Shown: positions 1,465 through 60,980 of the stretch, piece after piece
How the letters are laid out: each line of letters starts with the position of its first letter
How positions within the stretch are numbered: the first letter of the stretch is position 1
Assembly (NCBI GenBank): GCA_012646185.1
Contig: GCA_012646185.1_4706.1
Source of the DNA: a phage
Length of the DNA: 64,000 bases
Strand: one strand, 5' to 3'
Position numbers and translations under genes: made by a program
Notes under the pieces: model-generated
Seen by the model: the letters and a program-made list of their open reading frames with translations, nothing else
Told to the model about the DNA's origin: nothing
The model's database searches: none

Positions 1465-1495
1465 TCACTTAAGTAATATAGCCGTGAAAAATGTT
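1465..1495 (-). promoter_or_regulatory. phiKZ-type early promoter motif (TATATTAC on minus strand)
   Basis: Plus strand aagtaatatagccgtgaaaaatg; minus strand reads ...CGGCTATATTACTT; oriented toward the CDS starting at 1379; same core as sites at 7294, 36265, 60955. Confidence 0.5.
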
Positions 1496-1498
1496 GGA

Positions 1499-2296
1499 TT
1501 AACGTGTTCTCCTATCACGATGCGTATACGACTGAAGACCGATGTCCATATGCGGTAACGTCAGCGTCTGCCAGATCTGTCGTGCGTAGCGATCGAGCGT
1601 ATGATCGTCAGTAACACAATCGACGGGTTCGATGAGGTGGGTCGTATACTGGCTTTTCTCGGAGAAAGGTTCGAGGTTAGCTGTATCGCCTAATCCGCTT
1701 TTCACTGTGAAGACAAGACGTGTGACTATCATCGCTTTATGTTGCTGTTCATTATAACGAAGGCTGCGGTATACGGCATAGCTCCCTCCTTTTAGGCTTC
1801 GGGTATAACGAAGGTCGGAGGTCGTCTCGGAAATCTGATACAGCATCCAGTCCAACGTATCACGCCAGTACGCATCATCCACATCAGGAACCGTGATACC
1901 GTATCGCGTAGGCAGCAATTCTAAAAGCAATTTATAAAGTCCGCGACGCAGACCATGCTCTTCTGTTTCCGATAAACCGTTTCCAACGTAACGTGAAATA
2001 CGTGTACGTAAATACGTACGGATGAACATATTCGCCATCAAGGTCTTCACTCTGCTACTGGTATCCTCAAAGCGATCAACGCTGAAACTCGTTTCAATCA
2101 GTCGTCCATTAAAATACAATGCGGCAACATACATCGCGTTATTACTATCACGTTCAATGTTTAAACGTCCGCAGATATTGGCTGCGTCGTTCATGGTGAA
2201 TTCTAATTTATCGTGTTCGATACGATAGATAATATCCTCTTGGGTTGCCAGGCTCGCAATGCGACGGTAGCCCGGAGAAGTACGTTTTACACTCAT
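1499..2296 (-). CDS. hypothetical protein
   Basis: ORF track gives 1499..2335; start trimmed to the ATG at 2296 (residue M14), which has a GAGGA SD 5 nt upstream; the track start codon lies inside the TTTATGCCG motif directly after a terminator hairpin. Confidence 0.55.
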   Translation of the reverse strand: MSVKRTSPGYRRIASLATQEDIIYRIEHDKLEFTMNDAANICGRLNIERDSNNAMYVAALYFNGRLIETSFSVDRFEDTSSRVKTLMANMFIRTYLRTRISRYVGNGLSETEEHGLRRGLYKLLLELLPTRYGITVPDVDDAYWRDTLDWMLYQISETTSDLRYTRSLKGGSYAVYRSLRYNEQQHKAMIVTRLVFTVKSGLGDTANLEPFSEKSQYTTHLIEPVDCVTDDHTLDRYARQIWQTLTLPHMDIGLQSYTHRDRRTR

Positions 2297-2328
2297 GATT
2301 GTCCTCGTTTTCAATTTTAAGATTGCAT

Positions 2329-2338
2329 GCGGCATAAA
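2329..2338 (-). promoter_or_regulatory. late-promoter-like motif TTTATGCCG (minus strand) directly after a hairpin
   Basis: Plus strand gcggcataaa adjacent to hairpin 2339-2363; one of five copies of this arrangement (also 10852, 14900, 37167, 59785). Confidence 0.45.
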
Positions 2339-2363
2339 CCCTCCCCGCCTTATGCAGGGAGGG
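2339..2363 (-). terminator. GC-rich hairpin between co-oriented genes
   Basis: ccctccc - 11-nt loop - gggaggg, between the CDS ending at 2379 and the CDS starting at 2296. Confidence 0.45.
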
Positions 2364-2378
2364 CAGCCATTAAATGGA

Positions 2379-3017
2379 TTAACCTAATTTACCACCGGCA
2401 ATGTTGGTGAAATCTTCGCCATCAGGAACTTGCAGTAGGATACGTGCCATGTCCCAGTTGGTTAATGTAATTGCTTTATCATCGATACTCAGTTCTGGTA
2501 GGTCGAGTTCATGATCATCAAACTCGTAGGAAATACTCCACGTTTCATCTGTTTTAGGATCGGTTATCAACACACCGTCTGTTACACGCATGTAGTCCGG
2601 ATGCAATTCATTACTGAATGTGCTGAACGGATCGGTGTAACATTCAGCATACCCCTCGATCTGCTGACGTTGCGCCTTCGTACGTAATTCAGGGCACGCC
2701 ATAATCAGTTGTCGAGATATGCCGTTTGCAGCACGGAAGTCTTCCACGGTGTTGCATGGCATAACCACATCGTCATGGAAGATGTTCTCCGATTGTCTCA
2801 ACAGCGTCTTACGGAGTTCAGCATAGTTTATCTGATTGAATGCGTCGAACGTTGCTAACGATTCAGCGTAAAAATGCTTTACGTGTTCGCTTGCACTGCC
2901 GAGGCTATTCATCAGCTTGTGGCCGTACTCCATAAAGCTTTTATCGAGACCGGAGGACATTTCTCCGAACCTCAGTGCACGATAACTGTCTCGTCCACCT
3001 GTAAATATTTGCGCCAT
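2379..3017 (-). CDS. hypothetical protein
   Basis: 212-aa ORF; ATG preceded by AGGAGG SD immediately after the stop of the upstream exon. Confidence 0.65.
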   Translation of the reverse strand: MAQIFTGGRDSYRALRFGEMSSGLDKSFMEYGHKLMNSLGSASEHVKHFYAESLATFDAFNQINYAELRKTLLRQSENIFHDDVVMPCNTVEDFRAANGISRQLIMACPELRTKAQRQQIEGYAECYTDPFSTFSNELHPDYMRVTDGVLITDPKTDETWSISYEFDDHELDLPELSIDDKAITLTNWDMARILLQVPDGEDFTNIAGGKLG

Positions 3018-3032
3018 TACAGGCGTCCTCCT

Positions 3033-3254: not shown

Positions 3255-5233
3255 CATCAAAATCTTCAGTATGAATCGCTACTTCATACCCGCAGCATTA
3301 CCTGCAGCTCCTGGTGTTACCAGGATGTTGAGAGTATATCATGCCCATATTCCAAATGGAACGTAGGACTTCCGCGCTGGATCTCGCTTGAGACCACTTA
3401 CTCGTTGAACGTTCTCCTAAACGGAGCTTCGCTGCTGATTGGACATTGTTACGTACGGTAGGCGTCCCATTAAAGGGATTTTCATTGAAGCCGCGTACAT
3501 CCGTTACCTTGTTTCTACCTTATCGGTTCCTCTTACGAGGCGTAACGGCTTTAGCCTATTCCAGCAATTCACGGAATGCATATTCTCCTTTTCAGGAGAT
3601 AAGGCCATGGCTCTGGCATCACCGTCAAAGTCCACATATCTTCAGTATGAATCGCTACTTCATACCCGCAGCATTACCTGCAGCTCCTGGTGTTACCAGG
3701 ACGGAGAGATCATCTCATCACCCACGAAGGGTGTTCCGCGCTACCCTCAGCGAATTCGAGGGACATGATCGTTGAACCTTCCACCGATAATCGGTGGCTA
3801 GGCTGCTGATTAAACATTGTACGTTGGGGTGGCATCCTGGTTCAGGACTGTCGTTGAAGCCTCCCAACATCCACTCACTTATTTCCGCCTTATCGGCTCC
3901 CATAAGGGCAGAGTGGCTTTAGCCCGTCTCAGCAATTCACGGAATTCAAGCTCTTCCTTTCAGAAGGCAGGGCCTCATCTGAAGCATTGTATCCCTTAAG
4001 GATCATCACGCTTAACCCGATGGTGTTATCCTGCGGATCGCGTTTAACCTTGGTGATTTCAAGACATTGGTTACTGCTTCGGTCAAGTGATGGGTTTCGA
4101 ACAAAGCCGCACACAATCCCATCGAACGGCGTATCAGCAATAAGCTCATCGTGCAGCTCGCTCATCATCGGATGATAATTACGGACATGTTCCGCAACGA
4201 ACGCACGCGCTGCTCTCGGTGAGTAACCACGATGGAATAACTTGGATTGGATATGTTCTTTATTGGTTAAAGTAAATGGTGCGTATGGGAAATGCAGATG
4301 ATAATAACGATGGTTCGCTGTTATCGAACTGATTACGGTACGCGTGGTGAATGGATGTAATGTACCTAATATGTTTTTACGTGTAATACCTTTCTTCTTA
4401 CCGATGAACTCATCGAAAATCGCTGCGTGGTATTGCAGTAGCTTCAATTGCACTTTCGCCATCCAGTTTTCTTTCTTTCTGGCGCTCAAAGGTGTTGTTG
4501 GATGATAGATACTGTTCAACGTACCAATAGCATCGATCGCACCTTCCATTTTGCTATCCGCATAACGACCGGTCGGCGTATTTTCGATAACGAACATCAT
4601 GGCTGCAGGAAAGCTGATATACTGACTGAAGAACTTATCACGATGGATACGGATGAATTCTCGTAGCGTGTCAACTTTCTCCATGTTCTTCGGTCCACGT
4701 AACGTCGGTCCTTTATACAAGATCTCCATGATGCGATCGAAGTTCTGTATAAAGCTATTTACGCCACGCCGTATCCCGAATACATCGAATTGCTGCTCCA
4801 GATAGTTCTTGAGTTCGATGGGTCGTTTTACATTTGGACGGTAACTGGCATCAATGAGCCACGTCATCGTTTCAAAGCTTTTGATATTCAACTCGCTTGC
4901 CAGCACGAGATGGACCAACGGGTTAATGAACGCATCGATTCCTTCAGGAACGCGCGCCCAAACCGTCGAACGAATCTCTTGTTCTGCTGGGTAGGTTACA
5001 ACCGTTTTACAGTTTGGACACACCGTGCCGAGTAGCTCACCACGATTGTAGAAACCACAACCACATTGTGGTGTGATATCCAACGTATCGCTGGAGTAAA
5101 CACGGGTGATAAAACTGTTTAATTTCTTCTTCTCTTCGACGACTTTTGTATCGTAATCATTCAACAAAATCGGCGTGAAAGGAAGTTCTGCGAGCTGTCT
5201 ATCGAAACTCACGATATCGAGCATGATGGCCAT
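3033..5233 (-). CDS. RNA polymerase beta-prime-like subunit, N-terminal fragment type (non-virion RNAP by synteny); gene interrupted by two group I introns
   Basis: Exon 1 carries a Cys4 zinc-ribbon (CGCG...CPNC), a match to the beta-prime GKRVDYSGRSVI region (RKNILGTLHPFTTRTVIS) and an NRAPTLH-like RNPSLD; the spliced product of exons 3983..5233 + 3618..3632 + 3033..3254 (495 aa) reads ...KGYNA-DFDGD-NNHIVPD..., restoring the universal NADFDGD Mg-binding motif; AGGAG SD before the ATG at 5233. Confidence 0.75.
3255..3617 (-). ncRNA. group I intron (no ORF), 3'-proximal member of a tandem pair
   Basis: On the minus strand, in canonical order: P-like GAAUUGCUGGAAU (plus 3561-3573), Q-like AAUCAGCAGC (plus 3431-3440), R-like GUUCAACGAGUAAG (plus 3397-3410), S-like GAUAUACUCU (plus 3331-3340) with P7 pairing GAGUA/UACUC; ends in G; preceding exon ends in U. 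Confidence 0.75.
3618..3632 (-). CDS. 15-nt micro-exon encoding D-F-D-G-D (catalytic aspartate triad)
   Basis: Minus strand GAC TTT GAC GGT GAT lies exactly between the two introns, in frame with exon 1 (ends ...TAC AAT GCT = YNA) and exon 3. Confidence 0.7.
3633..3982 (-). ncRNA. group I intron (no ORF), 5'-proximal member of a tandem pair
   Basis: P-like GAAUUGCUGAGA (plus 3928-3940), Q-like AAUCAGCAGCC (plus 3801-3811), R-like GGUUCAACGAUCAUG (plus 3764-3778), S-like GAUGAUCUCUC (plus 3704-3714) with P7 GAUCAU/AUGAUC; ends in G at 3633; exon 1 ends in U at 3983. Confidence 0.8.
3983..5233 (-). CDS. exon 1 of beta-prime-like gene (417 codons)
   Basis: ORF-track ORF 3929..5233 truncated at the 5' splice site; the 18 track codons after ...GYNA (SDEALPSERKSLNSVNC) are intron-encoded and overlap the intron P element. 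Confidence 0.7.
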
Positions 5234-5325: not shown

Positions 5326-7221
5326 TTAGAACAGGTTGAATGCCCCACCCATGTTGTTAACGCCAACATTCGGACGATCGCTACGTGCGTAGATGTTACC
5401 GGAGATGTTACCCAGACCACGAGCACGTGCTGCCATGTTACCACGAACAGCGGTACCTGCCAGATGCTGGATGTTCTCAGGACGGATGGTGAAGCCAGCA
5501 TCAGCCGCAGCTTCGATCAGCGCCTGCAGTGCTAACGGATCGAAGTCGTAACGCATTGCCCAGCCGGTTTGTTCCCAGCTACCAGACAGAACACGATCGA
5601 TGATTTCGTGACGAGCGACAACACGCTGAGACATCGTCATATCGGTACGGTCGAAGCTGTCTTCCCAAGCTTCTACGGTATCCGGGTTAGTGATGTTCAT
5701 CATGTACAGATCGTCCATATCACGAATATCGTGACGGTGACCATCCTGGTGGTTGTAGTAACCCAGCGGGATACGGTTACCGGTAGCGTAGACCAGCGGT
5801 TGGCCGTATTGATATTTCTTGCTGAAGCAACCCAGGGTAGTATCATCGAAGGCACGGTAAAGTGCTTTGTAGCCTTCAGAGACTTCCTGAACTTTACCTT
5901 CAACATTACCCGTATAGATCTTCTCAGCCGCCGGGATCATACGCAGCAGCCAGCTGTATTCGCCTTCTTCCGGTACGTCGATAGAAATCAGCAGAGACGG
6001 ATACAGAACCTGTTGCAGGAACTTGTAAATCTGCTCGTTGGTTTGCGTAGACAGATCCAGCGGTGCAGTCACTTCAGGATCCAGCACCATCGCCAGAGCA
6101 CCTGGGTTATGCGGACCAATACCACGAGCCGCGTTGCTGATTAAAGACTGTGCCCATGCCATGCCGCTGTTCAGCGTAGCGATGGTACCAATCAGACCCA
6201 GCACGAAGCTGTTCGGTGTGAACGCATCCAGCTCCAGCGGGTAAGCGCTGGTCATCACGTAACGCGGCTGGTATTGTACAGTCGGCGGTACCGGATAGCC
6301 GTTAACCAGAACAGGGCCTTGGTTGAAGGTCGGGTTCTGCGGGCTGTAGGTCAGGTCGATGTAACCGGTGGTGGCGACCAGACGCTGTTGACTATCGTAA
6401 TCGCTCATCGCTTGACGGATGCGGTTAGAGATAGTTACAGTGATGTCAGAACGCACAGGGTTACCAACAATATCACTGTCCTGCATACCGCTGGTGTTGT
6501 ACTGAACGCTGCTGATTGGCTGATCGCTTGCCATCATGCCCAGGTTGAACTGCGGCAGACCCAGTTTATCACCGAGACGGATTTCGATTGCGGTCTGGAT
6601 TGCGTTATCTGCAGCAGACAGCAGGGTGGTTGCCAGATGCGCAGATTCAGCGGTGATTTCATTGGTCACCACAGCCAGACCAGCGATACGAACAGTACCG
6701 TTAGACTTACCGCCAATAGCTGAATACATTGCCGCCATGACTTCGTTGATGAACGTACCGTTCAGGTTATCAACCCAGGTACGCGGTACCAGAATGTTAC
6801 CATGCGGACCTTGTTCTTCACGACGCGGCAGCGGAGCCAGACCAGCAACCAGCGGCAGGACGTAACCGAAGAAGTGGTTATGATCACCAACTTTTGCACC
6901 GCTCATAACAACCAGGGTCGGATACGGTACGCTGTACTGGTTCGGGTCAACCGCAACAAAGATGAAGTCGTCTTTGAACTGGGTATCTTCCAGATATTTC
7001 TCCATCAGACGACGGAGATTCAGTACCTGCTCGGAGCCGGTATTACGGCTGATACGACGGCTCAGTGTACGGTTGATCGTACGCATCGTATGAGTTACTT
7101 TAGGACGGTCGGCAAAATCTGCAGCGGTTTCCAGCGCCTCATCAGCACGTTGTGCGGTGCGGGTTTCAGCTGCACGAATTTCTACATTATCGTTACCGTT
7201 ATTACGTACGTCTAAGCCCAT
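5326..7221 (-). CDS. chmA: chimallin-like phage nucleus shell protein (putative)
   Basis: 631-aa ORF, strong AAGAGGAA SD, codon usage typical of an abundant protein, early-promoter motif ~70 nt upstream, immediately upstream of a beta-prime-like RNAP gene as in phiKZ (gp54-gp55); identification rests on size and synteny, not on a catalytic motif. Confidence 0.55.
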   Translation of the reverse strand: MGLDVRNNGNDNVEIRAAETRTAQRADEALETAADFADRPKVTHTMRTINRTLSRRISRNTGSEQVLNLRRLMEKYLEDTQFKDDFIFVAVDPNQYSVPYPTLVVMSGAKVGDHNHFFGYVLPLVAGLAPLPRREEQGPHGNILVPRTWVDNLNGTFINEVMAAMYSAIGGKSNGTVRIAGLAVVTNEITAESAHLATTLLSAADNAIQTAIEIRLGDKLGLPQFNLGMMASDQPISSVQYNTSGMQDSDIVGNPVRSDITVTISNRIRQAMSDYDSQQRLVATTGYIDLTYSPQNPTFNQGPVLVNGYPVPPTVQYQPRYVMTSAYPLELDAFTPNSFVLGLIGTIATLNSGMAWAQSLISNAARGIGPHNPGALAMVLDPEVTAPLDLSTQTNEQIYKFLQQVLYPSLLISIDVPEEGEYSWLLRMIPAAEKIYTGNVEGKVQEVSEGYKALYRAFDDTTLGCFSKKYQYGQPLVYATGNRIPLGYYNHQDGHRHDIRDMDDLYMMNITNPDTVEAWEDSFDRTDMTMSQRVVARHEIIDRVLSGSWEQTGWAMRYDFDPLALQALIEAAADAGFTIRPENIQHLAGTAVRGNMAARARGLGNISGNIYARSDRPNVGVNNMGGAFNLF

Positions 7222-7285: not shown

Positions 7286-7320
7286 TCACCTAGGTAATAT
7301 AACCCTGAAATTTTTTTCAA
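7286..7320 (-). promoter_or_regulatory. phiKZ-type early promoter motif (GAAAAAAA...TATATTAC on minus strand)
   Basis: Plus strand ctaggtaatataaccctgaaatttttttc; ~70 nt upstream of the chimallin-like start codon. Confidence 0.6.
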
Positions 7321-7475
7321 TATTGGTGTAACCACATTGAACGATATAAACCCCCAGGCGAACGCTGCCGAGAAGCAACATTCTTTCTACATATAATCAG
7401 GATATGTCTGTAAACTTTTACTTCTCTTATTGAGAGTAATGTCATATCCGTTTACTACCTTCTTACGGAGTTCGT

Positions 7476-15178: not shown

Positions 15179-16159
15179 TTAGAAAAGCAAGAAACCGCTA
15201 TTCTTCGCTTCCGCTACAGTTTCGTCACCAACTTTCGGTGCCTGTTGACGTGCGTTACGATGTTCGATGTAACGTTTCGCTTCGTCAGCGATTTGTTTGA
15301 TAATACCCCCTAAACGATCGGTACTTAAAACAAACGACGTCGCTTCACGAATCGGGCTGCTTTCAGGCACAAAACCATCACAGCTGTAAATAGCGCTAAC
15401 ACCCATGACTTTTGTCGCGTCTTTCGGATAAAGCGTACAGAAAGCAATCGGGCTATCGTTCTCTTTCGTCCAATCGTATCCCATGAACGTATTCAGTTCG
15501 GTGATCGTTGGTTCCAAACCGGTAACACGTGGATGGTTTAAGAAGTTTTCCAGGTCGGCGCTGTCAAGACGACGGTTCTCGCCAGAAAACAGAACACAAA
15601 GCTGGCTAATAACAACCTGCACGTCCAGGTTGACATCCTGCTCCGATTTCCCATTTTCGCCATTCATGTGATAGCTAACAATCACTGGACGTTTCAACCC
15701 TTCTGCAGCCGCCATCAGTCCCTTGAAGGTGCGATCGGCGTTGATCGTCTGGCGCTCATCATCGAACGAGGCAACGATACAACACACCACACGTTCACCG
15801 CGTTCCAGCAGGTTAGCAACCAACGCAGGACCGGCAACAGAACCTGAACCACCGCTCAAACTAAAGACCACGATATTAAATTTACCGGGCGTACGCTTAT
15901 TCAGAATACCCGGGATTTGTGAACAGATCAGTTCAGCGTTCTCATCACGCTTCTTACCAGAACCGTCTAACTCACGACCGGCTGCATCTTTAAAGATGTA
16001 AATATGATCGTCACCCAGTGTGCTATCGCGTAGGTTAGCGCGGCTGGTATCGACATACGTCATGCTGTGTAATCCTTTCGCGACTTCGCCTTCAAATGCT
16101 GAGCCGATTTCGCCACCACAACCACCGACAGCCCAAATATGTACTTGGTTCTCTTGCAT
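15179..16159 (-). CDS. phuZ: PhuZ-like phage tubulin/FtsZ-family GTPase
   Basis: 326 aa; N-terminal VGGCGGEIG (tubulin T1-loop-like) and SLSGGSGS (T4-loop GGGTGSG-like signature); TAGGAG SD. Confidence 0.75.
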   Translation of the reverse strand: MQENQVHIWAVGGCGGEIGSAFEGEVAKGLHSMTYVDTSRANLRDSTLGDDHIYIFKDAAGRELDGSGKKRDENAELICSQIPGILNKRTPGKFNIVVFSLSGGSGSVAGPALVANLLERGERVVCCIVASFDDERQTINADRTFKGLMAAAEGLKRPVIVSYHMNGENGKSEQDVNLDVQVVISQLCVLFSGENRRLDSADLENFLNHPRVTGLEPTITELNTFMGYDWTKENDSPIAFCTLYPKDATKVMGVSAIYSCDGFVPESSPIREATSFVLSTDRLGGIIKQIADEAKRYIEHRNARQQAPKVGDETVAEAKNSGFLLF

Positions 16160-21923: not shown

Positions 21924-21951
21924 TGCATTGCCTTCCGCGAGTGTAATCAGG

Positions 21952-21975
21952 AAGGTAATGTAGGTTTATTTTAAT
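21952..21975 (-). promoter_or_regulatory. degenerate early-promoter-like motif (TACATTAC on minus strand)
   Basis: Plus strand gaaggtaatgtaggtttattttaatc resembles the site at 60951 (gaaggtaatatagtcctgttattttttt). Confidence 0.3.
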
Positions 21976-22034
21976 CTCCATTTCGCGATGATATGACAGT
22001 CTTTATTACGTTTACCATCTGAGGGAGCATGCTC

Positions 22035-23427: not shown

Positions 23428-23456
23428 TCCTCTGGGAATGGAACCCAGAGGAGGAC
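23428..23456. terminator. bidirectional terminator hairpin (11-bp stem)
   Basis: cctcctctggg-aatggaa-cccagaggagg between convergent CDSs. Confidence 0.55.
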
Positions 23457-36257: not shown

Positions 36258-36290
36258 TCAGTTAGGTAATATAGACCTCAACTTTTTTCC
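36258..36290 (-). promoter_or_regulatory. phiKZ-type early promoter motif (GAAAAAAG...TATATTAC on minus strand)
   Basis: Plus strand cagttaggtaatatagacctcaacttttttcc. Confidence 0.55.
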
Positions 36291-44500: not shown

Positions 44501-45897
44501 GTTAATCCAGAACCGTCGGGTGCTTCGATTTCGTGAATGGCGTCAGCATTACGCATCGCTGCTTTATATTGGACGCCGCTTAACTGACCCGCATCAGCCA
44601 GATCGCTCGCGCGTACCAACACCGCATCCGATAACGACTGAATATATTCACCGTGTGTTTTCGGTAGCGTTGCTGCGTCAAAGACATCAACCTTTTCTTC
44701 TTCGGTATCGTCGGTAACGACTTCGAAGAGATCGTCGGTAATGTCCTGATCTTCATCGGGTTGGAAATCTGGTTGTACTTCTACCCCGGGTACTTCACGG
44801 ACATCTTCGAACGAGCGTTCTACAATGGCGTTCCACGCATCAGCGTCATCGTCTTCATCCGACCCGCCGACCAACTCCGCTTCTAACTCATCGGGATCAA
44901 GAACGGTAGCCAGATCCTCACCGTTAGGAAGCACGACGTCGCGATCATCATACTCCGCATCCGGGCTGTCTGCAAGAATATCTCGCTCTTGACGAAGAAC
45001 CTGTTCCTCTTCTTGTTTCTGTTCTTCTTCATTCGCACTCTGCGACCACAAACGTGTTACCGCCATCATCCAACGACGCTGGAAGGTTTCAAGTGTCGTT
45101 TTATCGAGTTCTTCCCCTTCCTTAACAAGCCCGGTACGCCATTCCTCCAGCAGGCCCAGATTCAGCGTAAAGAAGTACACACCGTCCGTAAATACAACGT
45201 TAAGCTTATCCAGCGTGGCTCTGTCTAACGAAGCCATCGTACTGTTCTCACGATCGGTTCCCAACCAGCGGAAGAAGTCAAAGAACGACAGCTCCTCCGG
45301 CGTAGCGAAATTCATGAGGTTGTTACGGGTCGGTGCCTGTTGCGTGGTACGCATCAACGAAATCTTCGGCAATGTTGACGGTATACGGAACAACAGAAAG
45401 TGTTGACGATCGCTTTGCTGTGCGATTTCGTTGGCTTTCGACCAAATTGTTTTACGTACGTTGAACCATTCATCATACCAACGGGTGAGCGTTGGACGAT
45501 AAATGTACATGTGGTTAAGATGCGCGTAGTTAGCCACGATCTGAGCGTTGATGTTTTTCTCCACCGTACTTAGATCAGTGACCAAACGAAAACGACGATG
45601 CGATGCACGGTAATCCAGTTTCGCACGCGGTAGCTGGAATCGCTGATCCCGTCGAGGTGCGCCTTGCTTGGTTGCAAGGTCATCCGCGAACGATATCCAA
45701 AGCTGGGCACTTTCTTTGCTCAGCATGTATTCGTTTTCTGGAGGACCTATCAATGATGGATCCGTTGCGGTGTAATGATAGACAGCATAACGCGGCAGCT
45801 GCAATAGCTGCACTAAACGTAATCTCGGTGACAATAGCTCTTGGTAGCGTCTGACACCGAACTGTCGGTAGTAATCAAGGTATTTAAGTTTTGCCAT
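41551..45897 (-). CDS. RNA polymerase beta-like subunit, large N-terminal fragment type (virion RNAP by synteny), putative
   Basis: 1448-aa ORF directly downstream of the beta-prime-like gene and next to the giant tail-protein gene, as in phiKZ gp178-gp181; C-terminal DLGAGMGDKG...RIIGSP resembles the beta GDKxAGRHGNKG / NPLGVPSRMNIGQ region; assignment is tentative. Confidence 0.5.
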   Translation of the reverse strand: MAKLKYLDYYRQFGVRRYQELLSPRLRLVQLLQLPRYAVYHYTATDPSLIGPPENEYMLSKESAQLWISFADDLATKQGAPRRDQRFQLPRAKLDYRASHRRFRLVTDLSTVEKNINAQIVANYAHLNHMYIYRPTLTRWYDEWFNVRKTIWSKANEIAQQSDRQHFLLFRIPSTLPKISLMRTTQQAPTRNNLMNFATPEELSFFDFFRWLGTDRENSTMASLDRATLDKLNVVFTDGVYFFTLNLGLLEEWRTGLVKEGEELDKTTLETFQRRWMMAVTRLWSQSANEEEQKQEEEQVLRQERDILADSPDAEYDDRDVVLPNGEDLATVLDPDELEAELVGGSDEDDDADAWNAIVERSFEDVREVPGVEVQPDFQPDEDQDITDDLFEVVTDDTEEEKVDVFDAATLPKTHGEYIQSLSDAVLVRASDLADAGQLSGVQYKAAMRNADAIHEIEAPDGSGLTLAEYVEVKPKAAKLAPAKVMPEADVIVDKSLCKSTLAVWDKHYVEHVMQKDIAAAVVAVQQAGYPVTGYKVEDVVDVMGDYQVITIKLAPVGGVPTTFPVMLPKVRKDGIYVVNGIKYRMRKQRVDKPIRKVSSSEVALSTAYGKVFVKRSERVVNNAGRWLTRQLTAMYYDKSSPLTTLKRGNVFDPAVKVPYYFAVLARNYTQIQFADWDIRLDTKTLPEFIGEDRFNEQLAEGLLTFARNTLGEFLAIDKRNQLYICQSGQTPTPVGTFPDFFGINAAKMPIEAADLEFMGVRIPVGVVLSYLGGLTPLLEHLKANYRTVPRGSRMGLAPDEFAVSFDDESLIFSKDDRMTTLLLGGFNEYRNYIGYARGAFDNRDIYFNVVDGAGLKVRHLRELELMERLFVDPVSRTLLQNMGEPTDFAMLLLRAVELLLDDWAPNTNDVNYQRFKTYDKFAELVYKDLVGAIRQNENSSQGNRQKISISPVSVWNQILDDSASIVIDETNPMLDIKQGEEATMTGIGGRSKTSLRRARDREYDKSDVGIVSEGTKDSGDVGISAYLAPNANIVSVYGETRPFDEKTDGISSVMSTSALAVPAVDRDDGKRLVFVGIQHNRMIAAEGYDVQPWRTGGETVIAHRVGKLFAAAAQGDGVVKKVTKTALTIQYDDPELGEEVFQLGTIIGKGPGKYYPHDLITDYKVGDRVKDQDVVVFHRLYFKRDWWNPGQVVWRAGVLSLVGILDIPETHEDSSYIFDNLADRLVTPSIKSRTLIVDAHLNIRGLVKIGDHVEPRTILATLEEPIATDLSDESQEAVEALRRMSQYNPRADVHGEVVQIDVLYRAQIEDMSETMAALVGEADKARAKRVKELKLNEATTGRINNSNVRIDGNPLGENQIAIRIFMRYDLGAGMGDKGTFAAQAKSVVSSVGHGVNKTEDGHTLDAIFSGTSIANRIIGSPEVVGTVNLGLLYATERAVDIYFNDAK

Positions 45898-45900
45898 GGG

Positions 45901-46080
45901 TTAGGCTCCACGAGGTCCCGTTAAGTTGCGTAACAGGAACGCAACTGTATCGTAACCAATATCAATGTTGAATTTATTTTTACCGCTTACCCAGAAAGCA
46001 CGCTTCTTGTGTGAGTTGGTAATTTCGTCAATAGCTTCCATGGAATAAAGAACGTTAACCGAGACCGTATCACCGTCGAA
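45901..46080 (-). CDS. exon 2 of virion-type beta-prime-like gene (59 codons + stop)
   Basis: Begins TTC GAC GGT GAT ACG GTC (FDGDTVSVNVLYSMEAIDE, cf. E. coli FDGDQMAVHVPLTLEAQLE) right after an intron-terminal G at 46081; stop TAA lies 3 nt before the ATG of the beta-like gene. Confidence 0.7.
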   Translation of the reverse strand, partial: FDGDTVSVNVLYSMEAIDEITNSHKKRAFWVSGKNKFNIDIGYDTVAFLLRNLTGPRGA

Positions 46081-49000
46081 CCTTGTCTTCGCCTCAGGTC
46101 GCTACGCTGAGACCGCCTGCATGGATACGTACATCACAGGCTGCTTGCACTTTCATGCAAGAGGAGACTATATCAAACCGGCAGCGCAACCTGCTACGGT
46201 AACCTACACTTCGAAGACGCTCGTCCTCTACAGGGTGGTAAATCCCTTAGTCGTTGAACCTGCGTTGTTTCACATTCTTGTTTGTAAGAATGTCGTATTA
46301 CTACGCAACAACCAGGCTGCTGATTGCCCATTGTTTCGCACCTTAGCACCGCTTACGCGGCTTTTCTTTCAGCCTAAGCCTCTTACGGAGGTAGTGCATC
46401 TCAACTGTTGTTTCTGCCTTTCGGCACCTCATGGGTCGTTGAGCTTTAGGGGTTCCCAGCATTTCGTAGGTTTTTCAAGCACTCCCTTTCGGGAATACCG
46501 GACTCATTATTAGCTTATTTATTCAAGTATCTGAAATCCCACTTATCTTTACGTCGTTTATCGCACTTGATGTCAGGATGATTAACACGATGCCTAATAG
46601 TTGTTGCCGATAGCTGGCTGAGATTCTCAGCAGATCGTGCGCCAAGAACAACGAGTTTTGTGTCGTCTGGACGCGTAACTTCTACTGCCCGATAATGCTT
46701 ACGTAACACATCACGCCAATATTCACGACGTTCTGGTTCAGCATACTCAAGCATGTAACCGTTAACATCTACTAAACCGTAGCTTTCGTTTAATCGAGAG
46801 GTAGCGGCTGGTTTACTAATACCGATTGCTTTAGCCGCATCGACCACGGTTTTATACGGGGTCTCATTACCGTCTCTATCTACAACCACAATGAAATCTG
46901 GACGTGAATCGAGTAGCTGCTGTCTGCGTTCGACGGCTTGTTGATGAAGCACCATGTTAACGTGTTCGAACCCGTAACCTTCTGGACCGTGCCACCCTGG
47001 ATTGTTATTCGCTCGATAAAGTACCGTCGCAGATTTCACTCCAGTCTGACGTGACGCCTCGTTTGCACTATGAACAACCGTGGTAGAGCCGTCAGGGTGA
47101 TATATCCGTATCTGGTTCATTATACCGGAACCAATGAAGTTACCATCAGCTGATTTAATATCCGGCCATGGTTGAGGATCATCTTTGAATTTAACCACCC
47201 AGCGGTTATTAAACAGTTTGACTTTTCGAACATGTTTGCCCATTGTCGTATCCGTAACACCTGCGACTACTGATGCCTGTGTGATACTCAGGTACTCAGT
47301 AACGGTATCGTTCCATGTATCCCAAAGCAGAACCGGTTTATTGTCGTCGCGTAAACCGTATTCGATGGCGTGTAGAACGTTACGACTTCTGGTCGCCCAT
47401 TCAAGATTATCGAGAGAGTAATTCCATTTGTCGGCATCGAGATGATTAACGTCCAACTTATCGACATTAGCCGGATATTCCCGCCACGCCAACATCAAGC
47501 AGCGATGCAGAACCTTAGTTCTCGTTACATCCCGACAATCATGACGTAGACTAATGAATACGTAATTATCCTTTTTCGGATACGATCTACATTCCTGACC
47601 GTCTTTGCGGCGAATAACTCGTCCTTTCTCATTTATCAGATAACGGGTGTGTCCAGGAATGACACGATAACCAGGGTACTTAGCGATTTCGTAAGCAGGC
47701 TCGAACCGATAGGATAAATTATCAACATCCCAGTTAGATTCGTCACCATCAACAAACATCGCTTTGACGTACTTCTGTGTTTCAATATCAACCAGGATGT
47801 TTTTGTGTGCGATACAAATCAATGCTGGGATATTGAATTCACGACCGGCTAAGATAACCATGTCGCCATTTCTCGGTATCACGACGTGGGTATCACGATA
47901 CCGTAAATTTCCATAGCCGTCTATTTCAATCCAGCTTAGAAACGGAATGGATATAAACTCTTTTTCAGATACTCGCCATTTAAACATCTTAATACCTATT
48001 TAATACTAAACATCATATTAATAGGTTTAAAAGTTAAAAATGACAGAAAATGGCTAAATTGAATCACCGCCTAAACCGGCGAGGTACGGGGCAGGAACAA
48101 TAGTAGTTTCTACGAATGATGCATTAGGTAACCAGTCGGGGTATTCCCATGCGATAAATCGTTCATCCGTTATTGGTTCCCAGTTACTATCCAGTTCGGT
48201 TTTCGGTTTTGCCGCAACGGTTGTACGTGCGTAACAGGTTAACGGGATAACGGATTGCATACCGGATACCGGATAACGTGTTACCATCGCAGCCAGGTTA
48301 TTCCAGTACTTATAACCAGCGATATAAATAAGCTCGGTGTAAGTAATGGGGTGAACATCCGCACCAGGCTTATTCAACATCTCCGGAGGTAATTCACTCA
48401 TACCACGGAATAACCGAAACGAATCATTGTTCACATAGACGAGGCAAAGATATCGTCCATTGACCATGATAGGCTCGTTACGCACGCCAGGATCGCTTAA
48501 GGTGTTCAGTAAACGTTCTATTCCGTCCCAGGTTGTAAAGTCATCGATGGTGTCTGGATCAAGCGTGACACGTTCACGTTCCATCGTTTCGGTATCAATA
48601 AGTTCAACTTCTGTAACGTCACGAACAAATATTTCCTGCAAAATACCGGTACGTAACGCATGTTGCGTTACTGGGAGAGCAGCTTTACTCATCTGGTATA
48701 ACCCTAACTGAACTGCGGTACAGGAAGGCTGGTTAGGCGACCCTAATACCTCCGTTGTGGGGTTAATTGCCGAAATAACGTTACGGGTTGAGTTCCAAAC
48801 GCGACGTGAACCAAACTTCCCTTGGAAGATCCCTTTCTTACCTTGGAACATATCCAACAACAAAGCGTAGATATCGTTAAACGTTCTCTGTAAGCTCCAG
48901 CGTTGGCCGTCGTAAACGGGATCGGAATAATCTTTTAATCCATCAGGGACGGTGTTAGAAATTGCAAGGAAACGACGATACAACTCCGTGATTTCTTGCT

Positions 49001-49529
49001 CGCTTTCATACCCACCTTCTTTTACTTCTATTTCACGTAAACCCGCAGGTAAAACCAGTAGATGACGAGTCATCGCTTTGAACATGTTCTCTTCGACGAC
49101 TTTAATTCGTAGCTCTCGTTGAGCTGAACCCGTTGAAACGAACTTAATATCAGCGACGTGTTGTGCAAAGAACCCGTACCCTGTCTGTCCTGTTAACGCA
49201 TCAGACGCAACGAAGTCGCGTTGTTCAGGATCCCAACGCGCGTACGCCTTCCCCGACATGATATCGCCATAGAGGTGTTTTAGTCGAATGAGACGATCGT
49301 AGATGACAGGATGTAGGATTTCAACCTTGCATTCAATCACCGCAAATCGACGGTCTCGATCTTCACTACCCGCACTACCAAAGATGGTGTATGAATAGAA
49401 ACCGTCATCGTGGAAATTACCGGTGCTTGGATCACGAATGCTCATGCTCGTGATCTTGGGGAGAAAACGTAACTGCTGTTTATCGAGGTGTAAAATACTA
49501 ATATTAAACGGCTCTCTGACTTTAGCCAT
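45901..49529 (-). CDS. RNA polymerase beta-prime-like subunit, N-terminal fragment type (virion RNAP by synteny); gene interrupted by a group I intron
   Basis: Exon 1 shows GLFxxxIFGP-like (DGFYSYTIFGS), QGKFGSRRVWNSTRNVISAINP (cf. [26 protein letters not shown]) and TRYPVSG (cf. NRAPTLH); splicing 48063..49529 to 45901..46080 gives ...YLAGLGGD-FDGD-TVSVNV... (548 aa); AAGAGGAG SD before the ATG at 49529. Confidence 0.75.
46081..48062 (-). ncRNA. group I intron carrying an HNH homing-endonuclease ORF (mobile intron)
   Basis: Minus strand: 5' exon ends GGT GAT (U); ORF 46515..47987 lies in the 5' part; core follows with P-like GAAAUGCUGGGAAC (plus 46451-46465), Q-like AAUCAGCAGCC (46314-46324), R GUUCAACGACUAAG (46246-46260), S GAUAUAGUCUC (46164-46174), P7 GACUA/UAGUC; ends in G. 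Confidence 0.8.
46515..47987 (-). CDS. HNH homing endonuclease (intron-encoded)
   Basis: 490 aa; HNH_3-type motif VNHLDADKWNYSLDNLEWATRSRNVLH; C-terminal helix-turn-helix-like AKAIGISKPAATSRL; lies entirely within the intron. Confidence 0.8.
   Translation of the reverse strand: MFKWRVSEKEFISIPFLSWIEIDGYGNLRYRDTHVVIPRNGDMVILAGREFNIPALICIAHKNILVDIETQKYVKAMFVDGDESNWDVDNLSYRFEPAYEIAKYPGYRVIPGHTRYLINEKGRVIRRKDGQECRSYPKKDNYVFISLRHDCRDVTRTKVLHRCLMLAWREYPANVDKLDVNHLDADKWNYSLDNLEWATRSRNVLHAIEYGLRDDNKPVLLWDTWNDTVTEYLSITQASVVAGVTDTTMGKHVRKVKLFNNRWVVKFKDDPQPWPDIKSADGNFIGSGIMNQIRIYHPDGSTTVVHSANEASRQTGVKSATVLYRANNNPGWHGPEGYGFEHVNMVLHQQAVERRQQLLDSRPDFIVVVDRDGNETPYKTVVDAAKAIGISKPAATSRLNESYGLVDVNGYMLEYAEPERREYWRDVLRKHYRAVEVTRPDDTKLVVLGARSAENLSQLSATTIRHRVNHPDIKCDKRRKDKWDFRYLNK
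48063..49529 (-). CDS. exon 1 of virion-type beta-prime-like gene (489 codons)
   Basis: ORF-track ORF 48054..49571 trimmed at both ends: start at the SD-supported ATG 49529; the last two track codons (S, I) and the stop are intron sequence. Confidence 0.65.
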
Positions 49530-49591
49530 GGAGACACTCCTCTTTACCACCACCGGCTGCGGCGGTATCATCTGAACACACGAGAGACGTA

Positions 49592-58688: not shown

Positions 58689-59756
58689 TTAACCTAATGA
58701 CACCGTCGGTAAATCAGGATAAAGTTTCTTCAAACCCGCCATCGTGGTGGTAGTTGTATAATTCTTACCCATCGCAGCAAGAGATGCGTATTTCCTACTG
58801 CGGGAGAAAAGAGAATAGAACCCACTGGATGTTTCCATCCACATCGTGAGGAGTTCCGCATCATTACCGTGGTAGTTCGTTTTACCCCATCCAGGTTTAA
58901 ACGCATCGGCAAAATCAATTAAACGCGAGGCTTCAGCGTCGTATTCTTTAAGGGTAATGTACGATGGAATGCGGTAGTTACGAAACAGTAACGTAATGAG
59001 TTCAGGGACAACGCTACGGGCACGTTCGGCAGTAATGAGTTCGGTGATCACAGCAGCCGTACGGAAATCGCCGTTGAGGCCAACGCTGCTTAACGATTCC
59101 GCTAAAGTGGTCGCCATCGCCACTTTATCCTCCGCTGACCCAGAGTCATACAGACTACGCACATCGATGTAGTTGCCTGCTAATGCAGCTTGACGAATCA
59201 ACGACGTGACAACCGTCCGGTTCGTCTTATAGTCGTTGTAACTGAATTCGGTTCGCGTTTTCCCTTGATCGTCGAGATACCGATCGACAATCGTTGAAAG
59301 TTTATAATACTCATCGCCCGACATCAGACTATCGAGAAGCTTAACGTTTCCATCTTTATCAATAAGCTTCCCTAACGCGCCATTGGATTGCTGGTTAATG
59401 GTACTGTAAATCTGGTCTTTTACTTGCGATAGGATGTTATCGGTTGACGATATATTCAGGCCAGTAACATCTTTGATCTTATTCATCAACGCGTTTTCAT
59501 TCAGGGAGATTTTGCCTCCGCTGATATCGATGAAAGAATTAAGATCGCTTATGGAAATCAGGTTTCCTGTTAACGCCGATAATGTACTATTGATACTGTT
59601 CGTAATACTGCTACGAAAACTGGTTAACGCATCAGCCGCTGAAACAGCGGTACCGCTAACCGCTTTAAGGAGCGTATCACGCCCTGTCGAAAAATCGCTG
59701 GTAATGGTTTTGATCTTGGACGTATCTATACTCGGCAGTTTGTCGTAAAGACTCAT
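58689..59756 (-). CDS. hypothetical protein
   Basis: ORF track 58689..59807 trimmed to the ATG at 59756 (AGGAGG SD); the track's N-terminal extension is encoded by the terminator hairpin and TTTATGCCGT motif. Confidence 0.6.
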   Translation of the reverse strand: MSLYDKLPSIDTSKIKTITSDFSTGRDTLLKAVSGTAVSAADALTSFRSSITNSINSTLSALTGNLISISDLNSFIDISGGKISLNENALMNKIKDVTGLNISSTDNILSQVKDQIYSTINQQSNGALGKLIDKDGNVKLLDSLMSGDEYYKLSTIVDRYLDDQGKTRTEFSYNDYKTNRTVVTSLIRQAALAGNYIDVRSLYDSGSAEDKVAMATTLAESLSSVGLNGDFRTAAVITELITAERARSVVPELITLLFRNYRIPSYITLKEYDAEASRLIDFADAFKPGWGKTNYHGNDAELLTMWMETSSGFYSLFSRSRKYASLAAMGKNYTTTTTMAGLKKLYPDLPTVSLG

Positions 59757-59784
59757 CACGTCCTCCTGAAAAAGAAAAAAGAAA

Positions 59785-59794
59785 TACGGCATAA
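59785..59794 (-). promoter_or_regulatory. late-promoter-like motif TTTATGCCGT after hairpin
   Basis: Plus strand acggcataaa adjacent to hairpin 59795-59820; ~30 nt upstream of the ATG at 59756. Confidence 0.5.
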
Positions 59795-59820
59795 AGCCTA
59801 CCCACACAATGGTGGGTAGG
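59795..59820 (-). terminator. intrinsic terminator (10-bp stem) with U-tract
   Basis: gcctacccac-acaatg-gtgggtaggc followed on the minus strand by UUUCUUUUUUCUUUUU. Confidence 0.6.
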
Positions 59821-59838
59821 CTAAGATCAACATCGATG

Positions 59839-60351
59839 TTAAACTTCTTCGTTTTCCGAACCTAACGATTCAGCATCTGGATCATCAACGGGAATGGTTG
59901 CGTCAAAATACCGCTTCGTATGCGTGGTTGTATAACCTACGCTATCTGTGATGGAAATCGTAAACGTGACTTCCCTTGCACGGATTAAGCGTAGTTTATT
60001 CATGAAGTTACGGAACGGCATCGATCCCCGATTCAACTCCTTAATGACGTTTCCTCGAATACTGGAAATGTCTTTATTCGTTTTATCAGGGTGTCGTTTC
60101 TTCACATCACGCATATGTCGGGTAATATACGAATTGAGCTGATTTGCGCCGATCCCTCTCTCCGTATAAATCTGCAACAGGAACTCCGTAAGGAAATCCT
60201 GTCTACCCGTAGGCGTCCAGAAATTGTTACCGTGATGGTAGTTAGTCGCTCGTCCTCGATTGCTTTGAGGATTTTCATCATCGCTCTCATCACGACGCTT
60301 AAGCGGATTAATGCGTGCGCGGAAAGAGACTTCATTATATTTATTTGTCAT
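59839..60351 (-). CDS. hypothetical protein
   Basis: ORF track 59839..60396 trimmed to the ATG at 60351, which overlaps the upstream TGA (ATGA). Confidence 0.5.
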   Translation of the reverse strand: MTNKYNEVSFRARINPLKRRDESDDENPQSNRGRATNYHHGNNFWTPTGRQDFLTEFLLQIYTERGIGANQLNSYITRHMRDVKKRHPDKTNKDISSIRGNVIKELNRGSMPFRNFMNKLRLIRAREVTFTISITDSVGYTTTHTKRYFDATIPVDDPDAESLGSENEEV

Positions 60352-60863
60352 AATACACCAGTGTACTGACTGAGTGCGAAGGTTAGGAGTTCGCAACAGT
60401 CTCTCGCTAGTTTCCTTGTTTTGCGTAATCCATAAGCCGCATCCAAATCGTCACGTTCCGCCAGCGCGTCTAACCACGTCGCAAGTATGCGTCCATACTC
60501 GATAACGTCACGCATGAGAACGTCGAACTGGATAACACGACCATCGGCATCAGCAAGCCAACGATTGAATGTGATTTGTGGTGCTAGTATTGCATATGTT
60601 CTCTCCTCTAATGCGATTATGTTTATGTTGCCTTCGTTATCGAACGCTTGATGCCAACGGCGAAGGTCAAGCATCAACGACTCAGCGTCCATATACCACA
60701 ACGGTAAATACGTTTTACGTGCAACGCGTATATCGTAGATGTTGTGAACCCAGGACGTTGTTTTGTAAAGCAACAAGAGTTCGTTTAACCGTTGCCTATC
60801 ATCTTGAAACGTCTTCCTTTTATAACGTTGGAACGCACGCCTCAAGAAAAAGCGATGTAACAT
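60348..60863 (-). CDS. hypothetical protein
   Basis: 171-aa ORF; early-promoter motif ~90 nt upstream. Confidence 0.55.
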   Translation of the reverse strand: MLHRFFLRRAFQRYKRKTFQDDRQRLNELLLLYKTTSWVHNIYDIRVARKTYLPLWYMDAESLMLDLRRWHQAFDNEGNINIIALEERTYAILAPQITFNRWLADADGRVIQFDVLMRDVIEYGRILATWLDALAERDDLDAAYGLRKTRKLARDCCELLTFALSQYTGVL

Positions 60864-60947
60864 GGCATCACCTATGTATCATTCTTGCAGGCATCAATGA
60901 AGCCATCACAAGAAGGTAACGTTATACGTCGCCTTCATGACAGTCAT

Positions 60948-60980
60948 CATGAAGGTAATATAGTCCTGTTATTTTTTTCA
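60948..60980 (-). promoter_or_regulatory. phiKZ-type early promoter motif (GAAAAAAA...TATATTAC on minus strand)
   Basis: Plus strand gaaggtaatatagtcctgttatttttttc. Confidence 0.55.

What the first reader, a model, noticed from the sequence alone, without database searches (positions are those of the whole stretch)
1465..60980. Recurrent early-promoter motif (A-tract followed by TATATTAC) at four or more sites, all oriented toward minus-strand genes including the shell-protein gene
Plus-strand GTAATATA followed 6 nt later by a T-run occurs at 7294, 36265 and 60955, with a variant at 1473 that has an A-run in place of the T-run. On the minus strand these read GAAAAAAA-N8-TATATTAC. Each lies 70-125 nt upstream of a minus-strand start codon (chimallin-like gene, the abundant 159-aa protein, and two others). 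TATATTAC is the core reported for phiKZ early promoters used by the virion RNAP. Degenerate copies occur at 21955 and 31465.
Basis: partly seen in the sequence, partly recalled or inferred. Interest (0 to 1): 0.55.

Follow-up and report, generated by a model that had tools for sequence, protein, structure and literature searches.

The report
Early promoters of a Goslar-like jumbo phage
The repeated TATATTAC motif is real and is almost certainly the set of start signals that this E. coli jumbo phage's own injected RNA polymerase uses to switch on its first genes, the same signal already known from Pseudomonas phage phiKZ, so it is a sound but expected finding.

Summary
The window is a 96-98% identical relative of the nucleus-forming coliphage Goslar. 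The motif is real. Five sites, with cores at 1473, 7294, 21955, 36266 and 60955, all read on the minus strand. They share about 40 nt: an A-rich -30 element, a -20 element TTTCAsGG, the core TAYATTAC, then YT-N3-TGA. Each lies 32-124 nt upstream of a minus-strand start codon.

In the whole Goslar genome the motif occurs 13 times. All 13 are in gene orientation, and 12 fall in the 7% that is non-coding.

A matrix built only from phiKZ sites picks the four exact-core window sites as its top four hits, and no shuffle reaches them. The site upstream of chimallin matches a published phiKZ consensus early promoter at 29 of 38 positions. An equivalent motif sits upstream of chimallin in eight other genera. 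Three promoter positions are orthologous between phiKZ and Goslar: chimallin and two non-virion polymerase gene clusters.

None of the five sites fits a sigma-70 promoter.

Minor corrections: the spacer is N9, the core is at 36266, 31465 is not a member, and 60122 is a chance hit. No 5'-end data exist for this phage.

This is a new member of a known kind, of modest interest.

The parts
7286..7324 (-). Predicted early promoter upstream of the chimallin gene, A-tract type. Sequence: AATATTGAAAAAAATTTCAGGGT-TATATTAC-CTAGGTG. Core at 7294-7301; predicted start G at 7287.
   Evidence: It matches the published phiKZ consensus at 29 of 38 positions, above the best of 200 shuffles, 26. It is the top hit of the phiKZ-only matrix at 27.1 bits. 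It is identical in Goslar and in two Goslar-like IMG/VR contigs. An equivalent motif lies upstream of chimallin in eight other genera.
5326..7221 (-). Chimallin (nuclear shell protein) gene, 631 aa. First gene of the unit driven by the 7294 promoter.
   Evidence: 97.9% identical to Goslar chimallin. ATG is 73 nt downstream of the core.
3929..5233 (-). Non-virion RNA polymerase beta' subunit gene (phiKZ gp55 homologue). Second gene of the chimallin unit.
   Evidence: tblastn to phiKZ 47923-49170, E = 8e-61. Same gene order as phiKZ gp54-gp55.
36258..36296 (-). Predicted early promoter, A-tract type. Sequence: ATTATTGGAAAAAAGTTGAGGTC-TATATTAC-CTAACTG. Core at 36266-36273; predicted start at 36259. 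Its upstream half overlaps the 3' end of ORF 36278..37078.
   Evidence: 43.5 bits with the Goslar matrix, 15.7 bits with the phiKZ matrix, and 26 of 38 to the phiKZ consensus.
35663..36142 (-). 159-aa protein gene of unknown function. First gene downstream of the 36266 promoter, followed by 35146..35559 and 34607..35146.
   Evidence: ATG is 124 nt from the core. Only a PHROG of unknown function matches. The second gene is homologous to phiKZ gp151.
60947..60985 (-). Predicted early promoter, A-tract type. Sequence: CGTATTGAAAAAAATAACAGGAC-TATATTAC-CTTCATG. Core at 60955-60962; predicted start at 60948.
   Evidence: 46.3 bits, 18.2 bits with the phiKZ matrix. Conserved in Goslar and in both IMG/VR relatives.
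60348..60863 (-). 171-aa protein gene of unknown function. First gene downstream of the 60955 promoter, followed by 59839..60396 and 58689..59807.
   Evidence: ATG is 92 nt from the core. No family match.
1465..1503 (-). Predicted early promoter, 'TCCAAC/T-run' type. Sequence: GTTAATCCAACATTTTTCACGGC-TATATTAC-TTAAGTG. Core at 1473-1480; predicted start at 1466.
   Evidence: 53.4 bits, 12.3 bits with the phiKZ matrix. The same 38-nt block recurs at five Goslar sites. Its one difference from Goslar is at a non-conserved position.
871..1379 (-). Single-gene unit driven by the 1473 promoter: a 154-aa gene (915..1379) followed by a strong terminator hairpin (906..871).
   Evidence: ORF list. Hairpin of 16 pairs, 10 of them G-C, followed by a T-run.
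21947..21985 (-). Predicted weaker early promoter with variant core. Sequence: GGAGATTAAAATAAACC-TACATTAC-CTTCCTG. Core at 21955-21962; predicted start at 21948. It lies upstream of ORF 21372..21923.
   Evidence: 30.1 bits against the next best of 4.5. The TACATTAC core is shared by four other Goslar sites and toggles with TATATTAC at orthologous sites in relatives. The phiKZ matrix does not recover it, so it is the least certain member.
41551..49571 (-). Genes for the enzyme inferred to read these promoters: virion RNA polymerase subunits homologous to phiKZ gp178 (41551..45897) and gp180 (48054..49571), separated by a group I intron and an endonuclease-like ORF.
   Evidence: tblastn E = 1e-180 and 4e-90. 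Intron RF00028 at 46144-46530.
63024..63698 (-). Virion RNA polymerase subunit homologous to phiKZ gp149.
   Evidence: tblastn E = 2e-41. annotates the homologous Goslar CDS, 228757-229431, as an RNA polymerase beta subunit with locus tag gp196. A subunit called gp196 was GFP-tagged as vRNAP in bioRxiv 10.1101/2023.09.20.558163. I did not confirm that the paper's gene numbering is the RefSeq numbering.

Best explanation
These are phiKZ-type early promoters of a Goslar-like chimallivirus.

Each is a roughly 40-bp three-part element. It has an A-rich -30 region: either a run of 6-7 A, or AATCCAAC followed by a T-run. It has a -20 element TTTCAsGG. It has an AT-rich -10-like core TAYATTAC at about -14 to -7. 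The core is followed by YT-N3-T and a conserved G, which is the inferred start point 7 nt after the core.

The multisubunit RNA polymerase packaged in the virion is injected with the DNA. It recognises these sites without host sigma factor and, inside the early infection vesicle, transcribes the downstream minus-strand units. In the window those units are: chimallin plus the first non-virion polymerase subunit; three small-gene clusters of unknown function; and one single-gene unit ending at a strong terminator.

Shown here: the motif, its statistics, its placement, its conservation, and its identity with the phiKZ early-promoter consensus. Inferred: the start point, the early timing at each site, and which polymerase reads them.
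For: - Identity of the phage: the window is 97.7% identical to Goslar over 4 kb.
- Window sites: five sites at 30-53 bits, next best 4.5.
- Goslar genome-wide: 13 sites score 31-55 bits, one weak candidate at 151627-151634 scores 17.0, and the rest score 8.3 or less. All 13 are in gene orientation. Twelve are in the 7.06% of the genome that is non-coding, binomial P = 1.9e-13.
- Independent model: a matrix built from phiKZ alone ranks the four exact-core window sites first, and 0 of 200 shuffles reach 12 bits.
- Published consensus: the 38-nt phiKZ consensus early promoter contains TATATTAC plus an A-tract and ends 6N-G (PMC12676376 supplement). The window chimallin site matches 29 of 38 positions.
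- Orthologous positions: promoters sit before chimallin, before the gp68-70 cluster, and before the gp121-123 cluster following the capsid gene, in both phiKZ and Goslar.
- Footprint across genera: upstream of chimallin there is exact TATATTAC in Eowyn, RAY and SA002, TATATCAC in PhiPA3 and Noxifer, and CATATTAC in RP12, although the proteins are only about 24% identical.
- Footprint among close relatives: the block from -26 to +3 is kept while the flanks diverge. Motif spans differ from Goslar at 2 of 215 positions, against 97.35% identity for intergenic DNA generally.
- Literature: early motifs are about 10 nt, AT-rich and centred near -10 (PMC7598289). They are conserved at -10, -20 and -30 (PMC11512511). 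AR9 early promoters read AAATATATATTAT-(6N)-G(+1) (PMC5312081). Goslar chmA is transcribed at 5 min and from the vesicle stage.
- Enzyme: virion polymerase genes are present in the window.
Against: - No transcript 5' ends are available for this phage or for Goslar. The Goslar RNA-seq paper does not mention promoters, and its per-gene tables are not held.
- Thirteen sites seem few for the 175 of 249 Goslar genes reported as on at 5 min. PhuZ (15179..16159) is reported as early, yet the nearest upstream site is about 6 kb away at 21955. So either transcripts are long or other early signals exist.
- Site 21955 is not recovered by the phiKZ matrix.
- The extra conservation relative to Goslar (2 differences observed, about 5.7 expected) is not significant on its own.
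Confidence: 0.85

Rival explanations
1. The sites are host sigma-70 promoters: TATATT acts as the -10 hexamer and an upstream TTGAAA or TTAATC as the -35, read by E. coli RNA polymerase before phage takeover.
For: TATATT matches TATAAT at 5 of 6 positions, and TTGAAA matches TTGACA at 5 of 6, in the A-tract sites.
Against: The spacer between TTGAAA and TATATT is 13 nt, not 16-18. None of the five sites is reported on the minus strand by the sigma-70 scan, and sigma-70-like sites are not enriched: 25 against 34, 17 against 33, and 30 against 27 expected. Conservation extends to positions irrelevant to sigma-70: the AC after TATATT, YT-N3-TGA, and TTTCAsGG. The same motif marks phiKZ early promoters, and phiKZ transcription is independent of host polymerase (PMC7598289, PMC10914365).
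Confidence: 0.03
2. The motif, or its A-tract subset, is read by the non-virion polymerase as a middle-class promoter rather than by the virion enzyme.
For: phiKZ gp54 carries both an early and a middle motif. The middle motif is described as TACT preceded by an A-rich repeat (PMC8244752). The A-tract sites do contain an A-run upstream of ...TTAC.
Against: The described middle motif is centred about 22 nt upstream of its start, not about 10 nt. The published consensus that is labelled early itself contains the A-tract plus TATATTAC. The known non-virion polymerase signal is TATG at the start point (PMC7598289). Goslar chmA is still transcribed at near-normal levels when infection is stalled before the nucleus forms.
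Confidence: 0.07
3. The motif is a conserved intergenic repeat with some other role, such as a binding site for a phage regulator, a recombination or mobile-module boundary, or a chance repeat.
For: The TCCAAC-type copies are nearly identical over 38 nt, as duplicated module boundaries would be. One site drives a single gene followed by a terminator, which resembles a moron.
Against: Strict gene-sense orientation at 13 of 13 sites. A fixed position 32-212 nt before a start codon. Conservation across genera at orthologous genes while the flanks diverge. Identity with a motif tied to mapped early starts in phiKZ and 201phi2-1.
Confidence: 0.03

Closest known systems
phiKZ early promoters read by the virion multisubunit RNA polymerase (Ceyssens 2014, known here only as cited in other papers, since it is not held; PMC8244752; PMC10914365; consensus sequence in the PMC12676376 supplement)
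   Same: Identical core TATATTAC. The same three-part layout at -10, -20 and -30. The same T-G at 6-7 nt after the core. Both -30 variants (A-run, and TTCAAAC plus T-run) occur in both phages. The placement is the same before chimallin and before two non-virion polymerase clusters.
   Different: The -20 element is richer in G+C: TTTCACGGC or TTTCAGGGT here, against TTTAAACAG or TTTAAGATC. C/T-T directly after the core is conserved here but not in phiKZ. A TACATTAC core variant is used in 5 of 13 Goslar sites. There are only 13 copies per genome, against about 25-32. The host is E. coli, and the genome is 46% G+C against 37%. No experimental mapping exists here.
201phi2-1 early promoters (PMC11512511)
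   Same: An AT-rich motif about 10 bp upstream of the start, conserved at -10, -20 and -30. The promoters lie upstream of hypothetical genes. Not every non-virion polymerase gene has its own early promoter.
   Different: The sequence logo is not available in text form, so only the architecture could be compared.
Bacillus phage AR9 early promoters, AAATATATATTAT-(6N)-G(+1) (PMC5312081)
   Same: Near-identical -10 block (TATATTAT against TATATTAC), and the same 6-nt gap to an initiating G.
   Different: AR9 has uracil DNA and is not a chimallivirus. It has no equivalent of the -20 and -30 elements seen here.
Bacterial sigma-70 promoters
   Same: An AT-rich hexamer resembling TATAAT, located near -10.
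   Different: No -35 at a workable spacing. Extra conserved positions. The sigma-70 scan does not flag the sites.

Membership tests
phiKZ-type (chimallivirus) vRNAP early promoter | Conserved AT-rich core TATATTAC | tested here: met
   Four window sites have the exact core and one has TACATTAC. The core is identical to that of the published phiKZ consensus and of about 25 phiKZ sites.
phiKZ-type (chimallivirus) vRNAP early promoter | Additional conservation at the -20 and -30 regions (three-part element) | tested here: met
   Information content is concentrated at -35 to -15, as well as in the core, in the 12-site Goslar alignment. The phiKZ-only matrix over -40 to +3 recovers the four exact-core sites. 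The chimallin site matches the consensus at 29 of 38.
phiKZ-type (chimallivirus) vRNAP early promoter | Intergenic, in the sense orientation, directly upstream of gene clusters that include host-takeover, nucleus and non-virion polymerase genes | tested here: met
   12 of 13 Goslar sites are non-coding (P = 1.9e-13) and all are in the sense orientation. Sites lie before chimallin plus the gp55 homologue, the gp68-70 homologues and the gp123 homologue. The other downstream genes are small and of unknown function.
phiKZ-type (chimallivirus) vRNAP early promoter | The phage encodes a virion-packaged multisubunit RNA polymerase | tested here: met
   Homologues of phiKZ gp178, gp180 and gp149 are in the window. 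In Goslar a vRNAP subunit called gp196 was GFP-tagged and tracked with the injected DNA. One search gives locus tag gp196 to the Goslar homologue of 63024..63698; that the paper uses the same numbering is not confirmed.
phiKZ-type (chimallivirus) vRNAP early promoter | Transcript 5' ends about 7-10 nt downstream of the core, present within minutes of infection | not testable with these tools
   No 5'-end data are held for this phage. Only gene-level statements are available: chmA and 175 of 249 genes are on at 5 min.
phiKZ-type (chimallivirus) vRNAP early promoter | Transcription insensitive to rifampicin and independent of new protein synthesis | not testable with these tools
   Established for phiKZ and AR9 in the literature. 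Not reported for Goslar in the papers read.
Sigma-70 promoter | -35 and -10 hexamers separated by 16-18 nt | tested here: not met
   The spacer in the A-tract sites is 13 nt. No minus-strand sigma-70-like hit falls at any of the five sites.

The most novel reading that the evidence does not exclude
The two -30 variants may be functionally distinct promoter subclasses that predate the split between phiKZ and Goslar. One is a rigid A6-7 tract ending exactly 9 nt before the core. The other is (A/T)TCCAAC followed by a T-run.

On this reading the A-tract form marks the conserved genes that build the next stage: chimallin with the first non-virion polymerase subunit, and the polymerase cluster behind the capsid gene. 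The other form drives fast-evolving accessory genes. The A-tract could alter strength or timing, for example through DNA bending or an extra contact with a virion polymerase subunit or a co-injected factor.

Evidence so far:
- Both variants exist in both phages.
- Two of three orthologous promoters keep the A-tract form.
- By my reading of the sequences printed, six of nine genera have an A-run at the same spacing before chimallin.

This is not significant once shared ancestry is allowed for. phiKZ also has intermediate forms, so the classes may be a continuum.
Probability: 0.2. Interest if true: 0.5.

Novelty: new member of a known kind. Interest (0 to 1): 0.3.

Why it matters
Goslar is the E. 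coli model for nucleus-forming phages. I found no paper in the library that defines its promoters, and the Goslar RNA-seq study does not mention them.

A compact, sequence-defined early promoter set has several uses:
- It gives exact coordinates for testing which genes the injected polymerase reads inside the early infection vesicle.
- It gives a ready promoter cassette for engineering Goslar-type phages, as has been done with the phiKZ consensus.
- It shows that the virion polymerase's recognition sequence has stayed almost unchanged between Pseudomonas and enterobacterial chimalliviruses, although the neighbouring proteins are only about 24% identical. That constrains models of how this sigma-less enzyme finds promoters.

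None of this overturns current understanding.

Tried and rejected
- Bare 8-mer enrichment: not significant on its own. The extended motif is needed.
- Site 31465 (AATATTAC): rejected. It has no flanking elements, it lies between late structural genes, and neither matrix recovers it.
- Site 60122: an exact core inside a coding sequence with no context, so chance.
- Goslar 151627 (17 bits, upstream of a polymerase gene): lacks the -20 and -30 elements and is left as doubtful.
- Folding of the predicted 5' UTRs: z-scores from -1.0 to -2.2, nothing distinctive.
- Downstream gene function: PHROGs gave only families of unknown function. Few phiKZ homologues were found.
- IMG/VR scan with the A-tract pattern: mostly chance hits in unrelated contigs and uninformative, apart from revealing Goslar-like contigs.
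- Supplementary tables with mapped phiKZ starts and Goslar per-gene expression are not held. Ceyssens 2014 is not held.
- Extra conservation of the motif relative to Goslar: in the right direction but underpowered.
Full report
**What the window is.** A 4-kb probe is 97.7% identical to Escherichia phage vB_EcoM_Goslar, a nucleus-forming chimallivirus of 237,307 bp. Over the whole window, identity is 96.3% in coding DNA and 97.35% in intergenic DNA. I fetched the full annotated Goslar genome and the full phiKZ genome for comparison.

**Checking the observation.** Plus-strand GTAATATA occurs at 1473, 7294, 36266, 60122 and 60955.
- The bare 8-mer count is not significant: 5 hits against 2.3 expected.
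- Read on the minus strand, three sites are G(G/A)AAAAAA-N9-TATATTACCT-N3-TGA, and 1473 is AATCCAACATTTTTCACGGC-TATATTAC-TTAAGTGA.
- The extended A-tract pattern is far above chance, with 0 of 100 shuffles reaching it.
- Site 21955 (TACATTAC-CTTCCTGA) is a member.

**Genome-wide picture.** In Goslar, exact TATATTAC occurs 10 times, all on the gene-rich strand, and 8 of the 10 are intergenic.
- Allowing one mismatch adds TACATTAC sites with the same flanks.
- A matrix from 12 sites separates 13 sites (31-55 bits) from the rest of the genome. One weak candidate, at 151627-151634, scores 17.0, and everything below it scores 8.3 or less.
- All 13 sites point into the next gene. Twelve lie in the 7.06% of the genome that is non-coding (P = 1.9e-13). 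The core sits 32-212 nt before a start codon.
- In the window the same matrix gives five sites at 30-53 bits. The next best is 4.5, and the shuffle maximum is 13.
- The shared consensus has an A-rich -30 region, TTTCAsGG at about -23 to -15, TAYATTAC, and then YT-N3-TGA.

**Independent test against phiKZ.**
- phiKZ has about 25 TATATTAC sites with a common 35-nt context, all in gene direction. This fits the 28-32 early promoters reported (PMC8244752, PMC10914365).
- A matrix built only from those phiKZ sites ranks window sites 7294, 60955, 36266 and 1473 first, at 27.1, 18.2, 15.7 and 12.3 bits. The next best is -2.6, and no shuffle among 200 exceeds 10.0.
- A published 'PhiKZ consensus early promoter' reads tatattaaaaaaaatttaagatgTATATTACaaatgtg (PMC12676376 supplement).
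- The window chimallin site matches that consensus at 29 of 38 positions, above every shuffle.

**Comparative evidence for function.**
- Promoter positions are orthologous between phiKZ and Goslar at three places: before chimallin (followed by the gp55-type non-virion polymerase subunit); before the gp68-gp70 cluster; and between the major capsid gene and the gp121-123 cluster.
- Upstream of chimallin in seven further genera, the motif persists although the proteins are only about 24% identical. The core is exact TATATTAC in Klebsiella phage Eowyn, Erwinia phage RAY and Salmonella phage SA002. It is TATATCAC in PhiPA3 and Noxifer, and CATATTAC in Ralstonia phage RP12. It is diverged in the 58% G+C Xanthomonas phage LucasX.
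- An IMG/VR scan with the 18-nt TCCAAC-type pattern returned 19 stretches. Sixteen of them lie in Goslar and two Goslar-like contigs.
- At orthologous sites in those relatives, the block from about -26 to +3 is kept while the flanks diverge. TACATTAC and TATATTAC interchange there.

**Mechanism.**
- The literature places these motifs near -10 of early starts (PMC7598289; PMC11512511).
- AR9 early promoters read TATATTAT-(6N)-G(+1) (PMC5312081). The phiKZ consensus ends 6N-G.
- By analogy, the conserved G of TGA, 7 nt after the core, is the start. That gives window positions 1466, 7287, 21948, 36259 and 60948.
- The window encodes homologues of the phiKZ virion polymerase subunits gp178, gp180 and gp149, and of the non-virion subunit gp55.
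- In Goslar, a GFP-tagged virion polymerase subunit stays with the injected DNA in the early vesicle. In addition, 175 of 249 genes are on at 5 min, and chmA is transcribed at near-normal levels when infection is arrested before the nucleus forms (bioRxiv 10.1101/2023.09.20.558163).
- The most likely reading is that the injected polymerase initiates at these sites.
- The unit at 1473 is a single 154-aa gene that ends at a strong hairpin terminator at 906-871.

**Rivals.**
- A sigma-70 reading fails. The TTGAAA-to-TATATT spacer is 13 nt. No site is flagged on the correct strand. Sigma-70-like matches are at or below expectation.
- A middle-promoter reading is unlikely. The consensus labelled early already contains the A-tract, and the known non-virion signal is TATG.
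- A non-promoter repeat is hard to reconcile with the orientation, the placement and the cross-genus conservation.

**Open points.**
- No 5'-end data exist for this phage.
- Thirteen promoters are few for the number of genes on at 5 min. Genes such as PhuZ lie kilobases from the nearest site. So long transcripts or other early signals must exist.
- The two -30 variants occur in both phiKZ and Goslar. The A-tract form is kept before chimallin in most genera and at two of three orthologous positions. This is suggestive only.

**Verdict.** It is a new member of a known kind (phiKZ-type virion-polymerase early promoters), apparently not yet described for Goslar-type coliphages. It is useful but unsurprising.

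Noticed in passing
window 3578-3983 (Goslar 168165-169660): The window lacks the roughly 1.5-kb insertion that Goslar carries next to the non-virion polymerase beta' gene: an HNH endonuclease plus an annotated group I intron. In its place is a 406-nt stretch. Part of that stretch (3641-3975) is 72% identical to Goslar sequence just outside the insertion. The polymerase ORF is uninterrupted here, at 434 aa. No intron model matches this region.
   Followed up: partly
window 46144-46530 (-): A group I intron (RF00028, 56 bits) lies between the two large virion polymerase genes, next to a 490-aa ORF (46515..47987) homologous to phiKZ gp179.
   Followed up: partly
window 20001-40000: Sigma-70-like promoter matches are depleted: 17 found against 32.9 +/- 5.6 in shuffles. 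This fits a phage that does not rely on host polymerase.
   Followed up: no
window 60932-60955 (-): A perfect 9-bp inverted repeat (CCTTCATGA / TCATGAAGG, 6-nt loop) overlaps the end of the core and the predicted start of the 60955 promoter. Site 21955 has a similar CCTTCC...GGAAGG repeat. This could be an operator or could be chance; roughly one such repeat is expected per window.
   Followed up: no
window 60937-60964 (+): A 10-of-12 sigma-70-like match (ATGACA-16-TATAGT) lies on the opposite strand across the 60955 core, pointing at the plus-strand gene 60997..61626. It is probably a by-product of the AT-rich core.
   Followed up: no
Goslar NC_048170.1 49584-49772 (outside the window): The annotated 62-aa ORF gp047 contains a full-scoring promoter copy (core at 49725-49732), and its start codon lies upstream of the predicted transcript start. 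The ORF is probably spurious or mis-started.
   Followed up: no
loci L056, L127, L142-L154 (IMGVR_UViG_3300011560_000001) and L091, L094, L140, L141, L151 (IMGVR_UViG_3300045988_173921): Two further Goslar-like genomes exist in IMG/VR, of 237,533 and 182,865 bp; the first is about 95.7% identical to the window where compared. They carry the same promoter set.
   Followed up: partly
window 7476-8570 (+) and 22029-23273 (+): The plus-strand genes that diverge from two of the promoters are homologues of the phiKZ virion head proteins gp52 and gp32. They have no early motif, so these intergenic regions probably also hold an oppositely directed late promoter.
   Followed up: no
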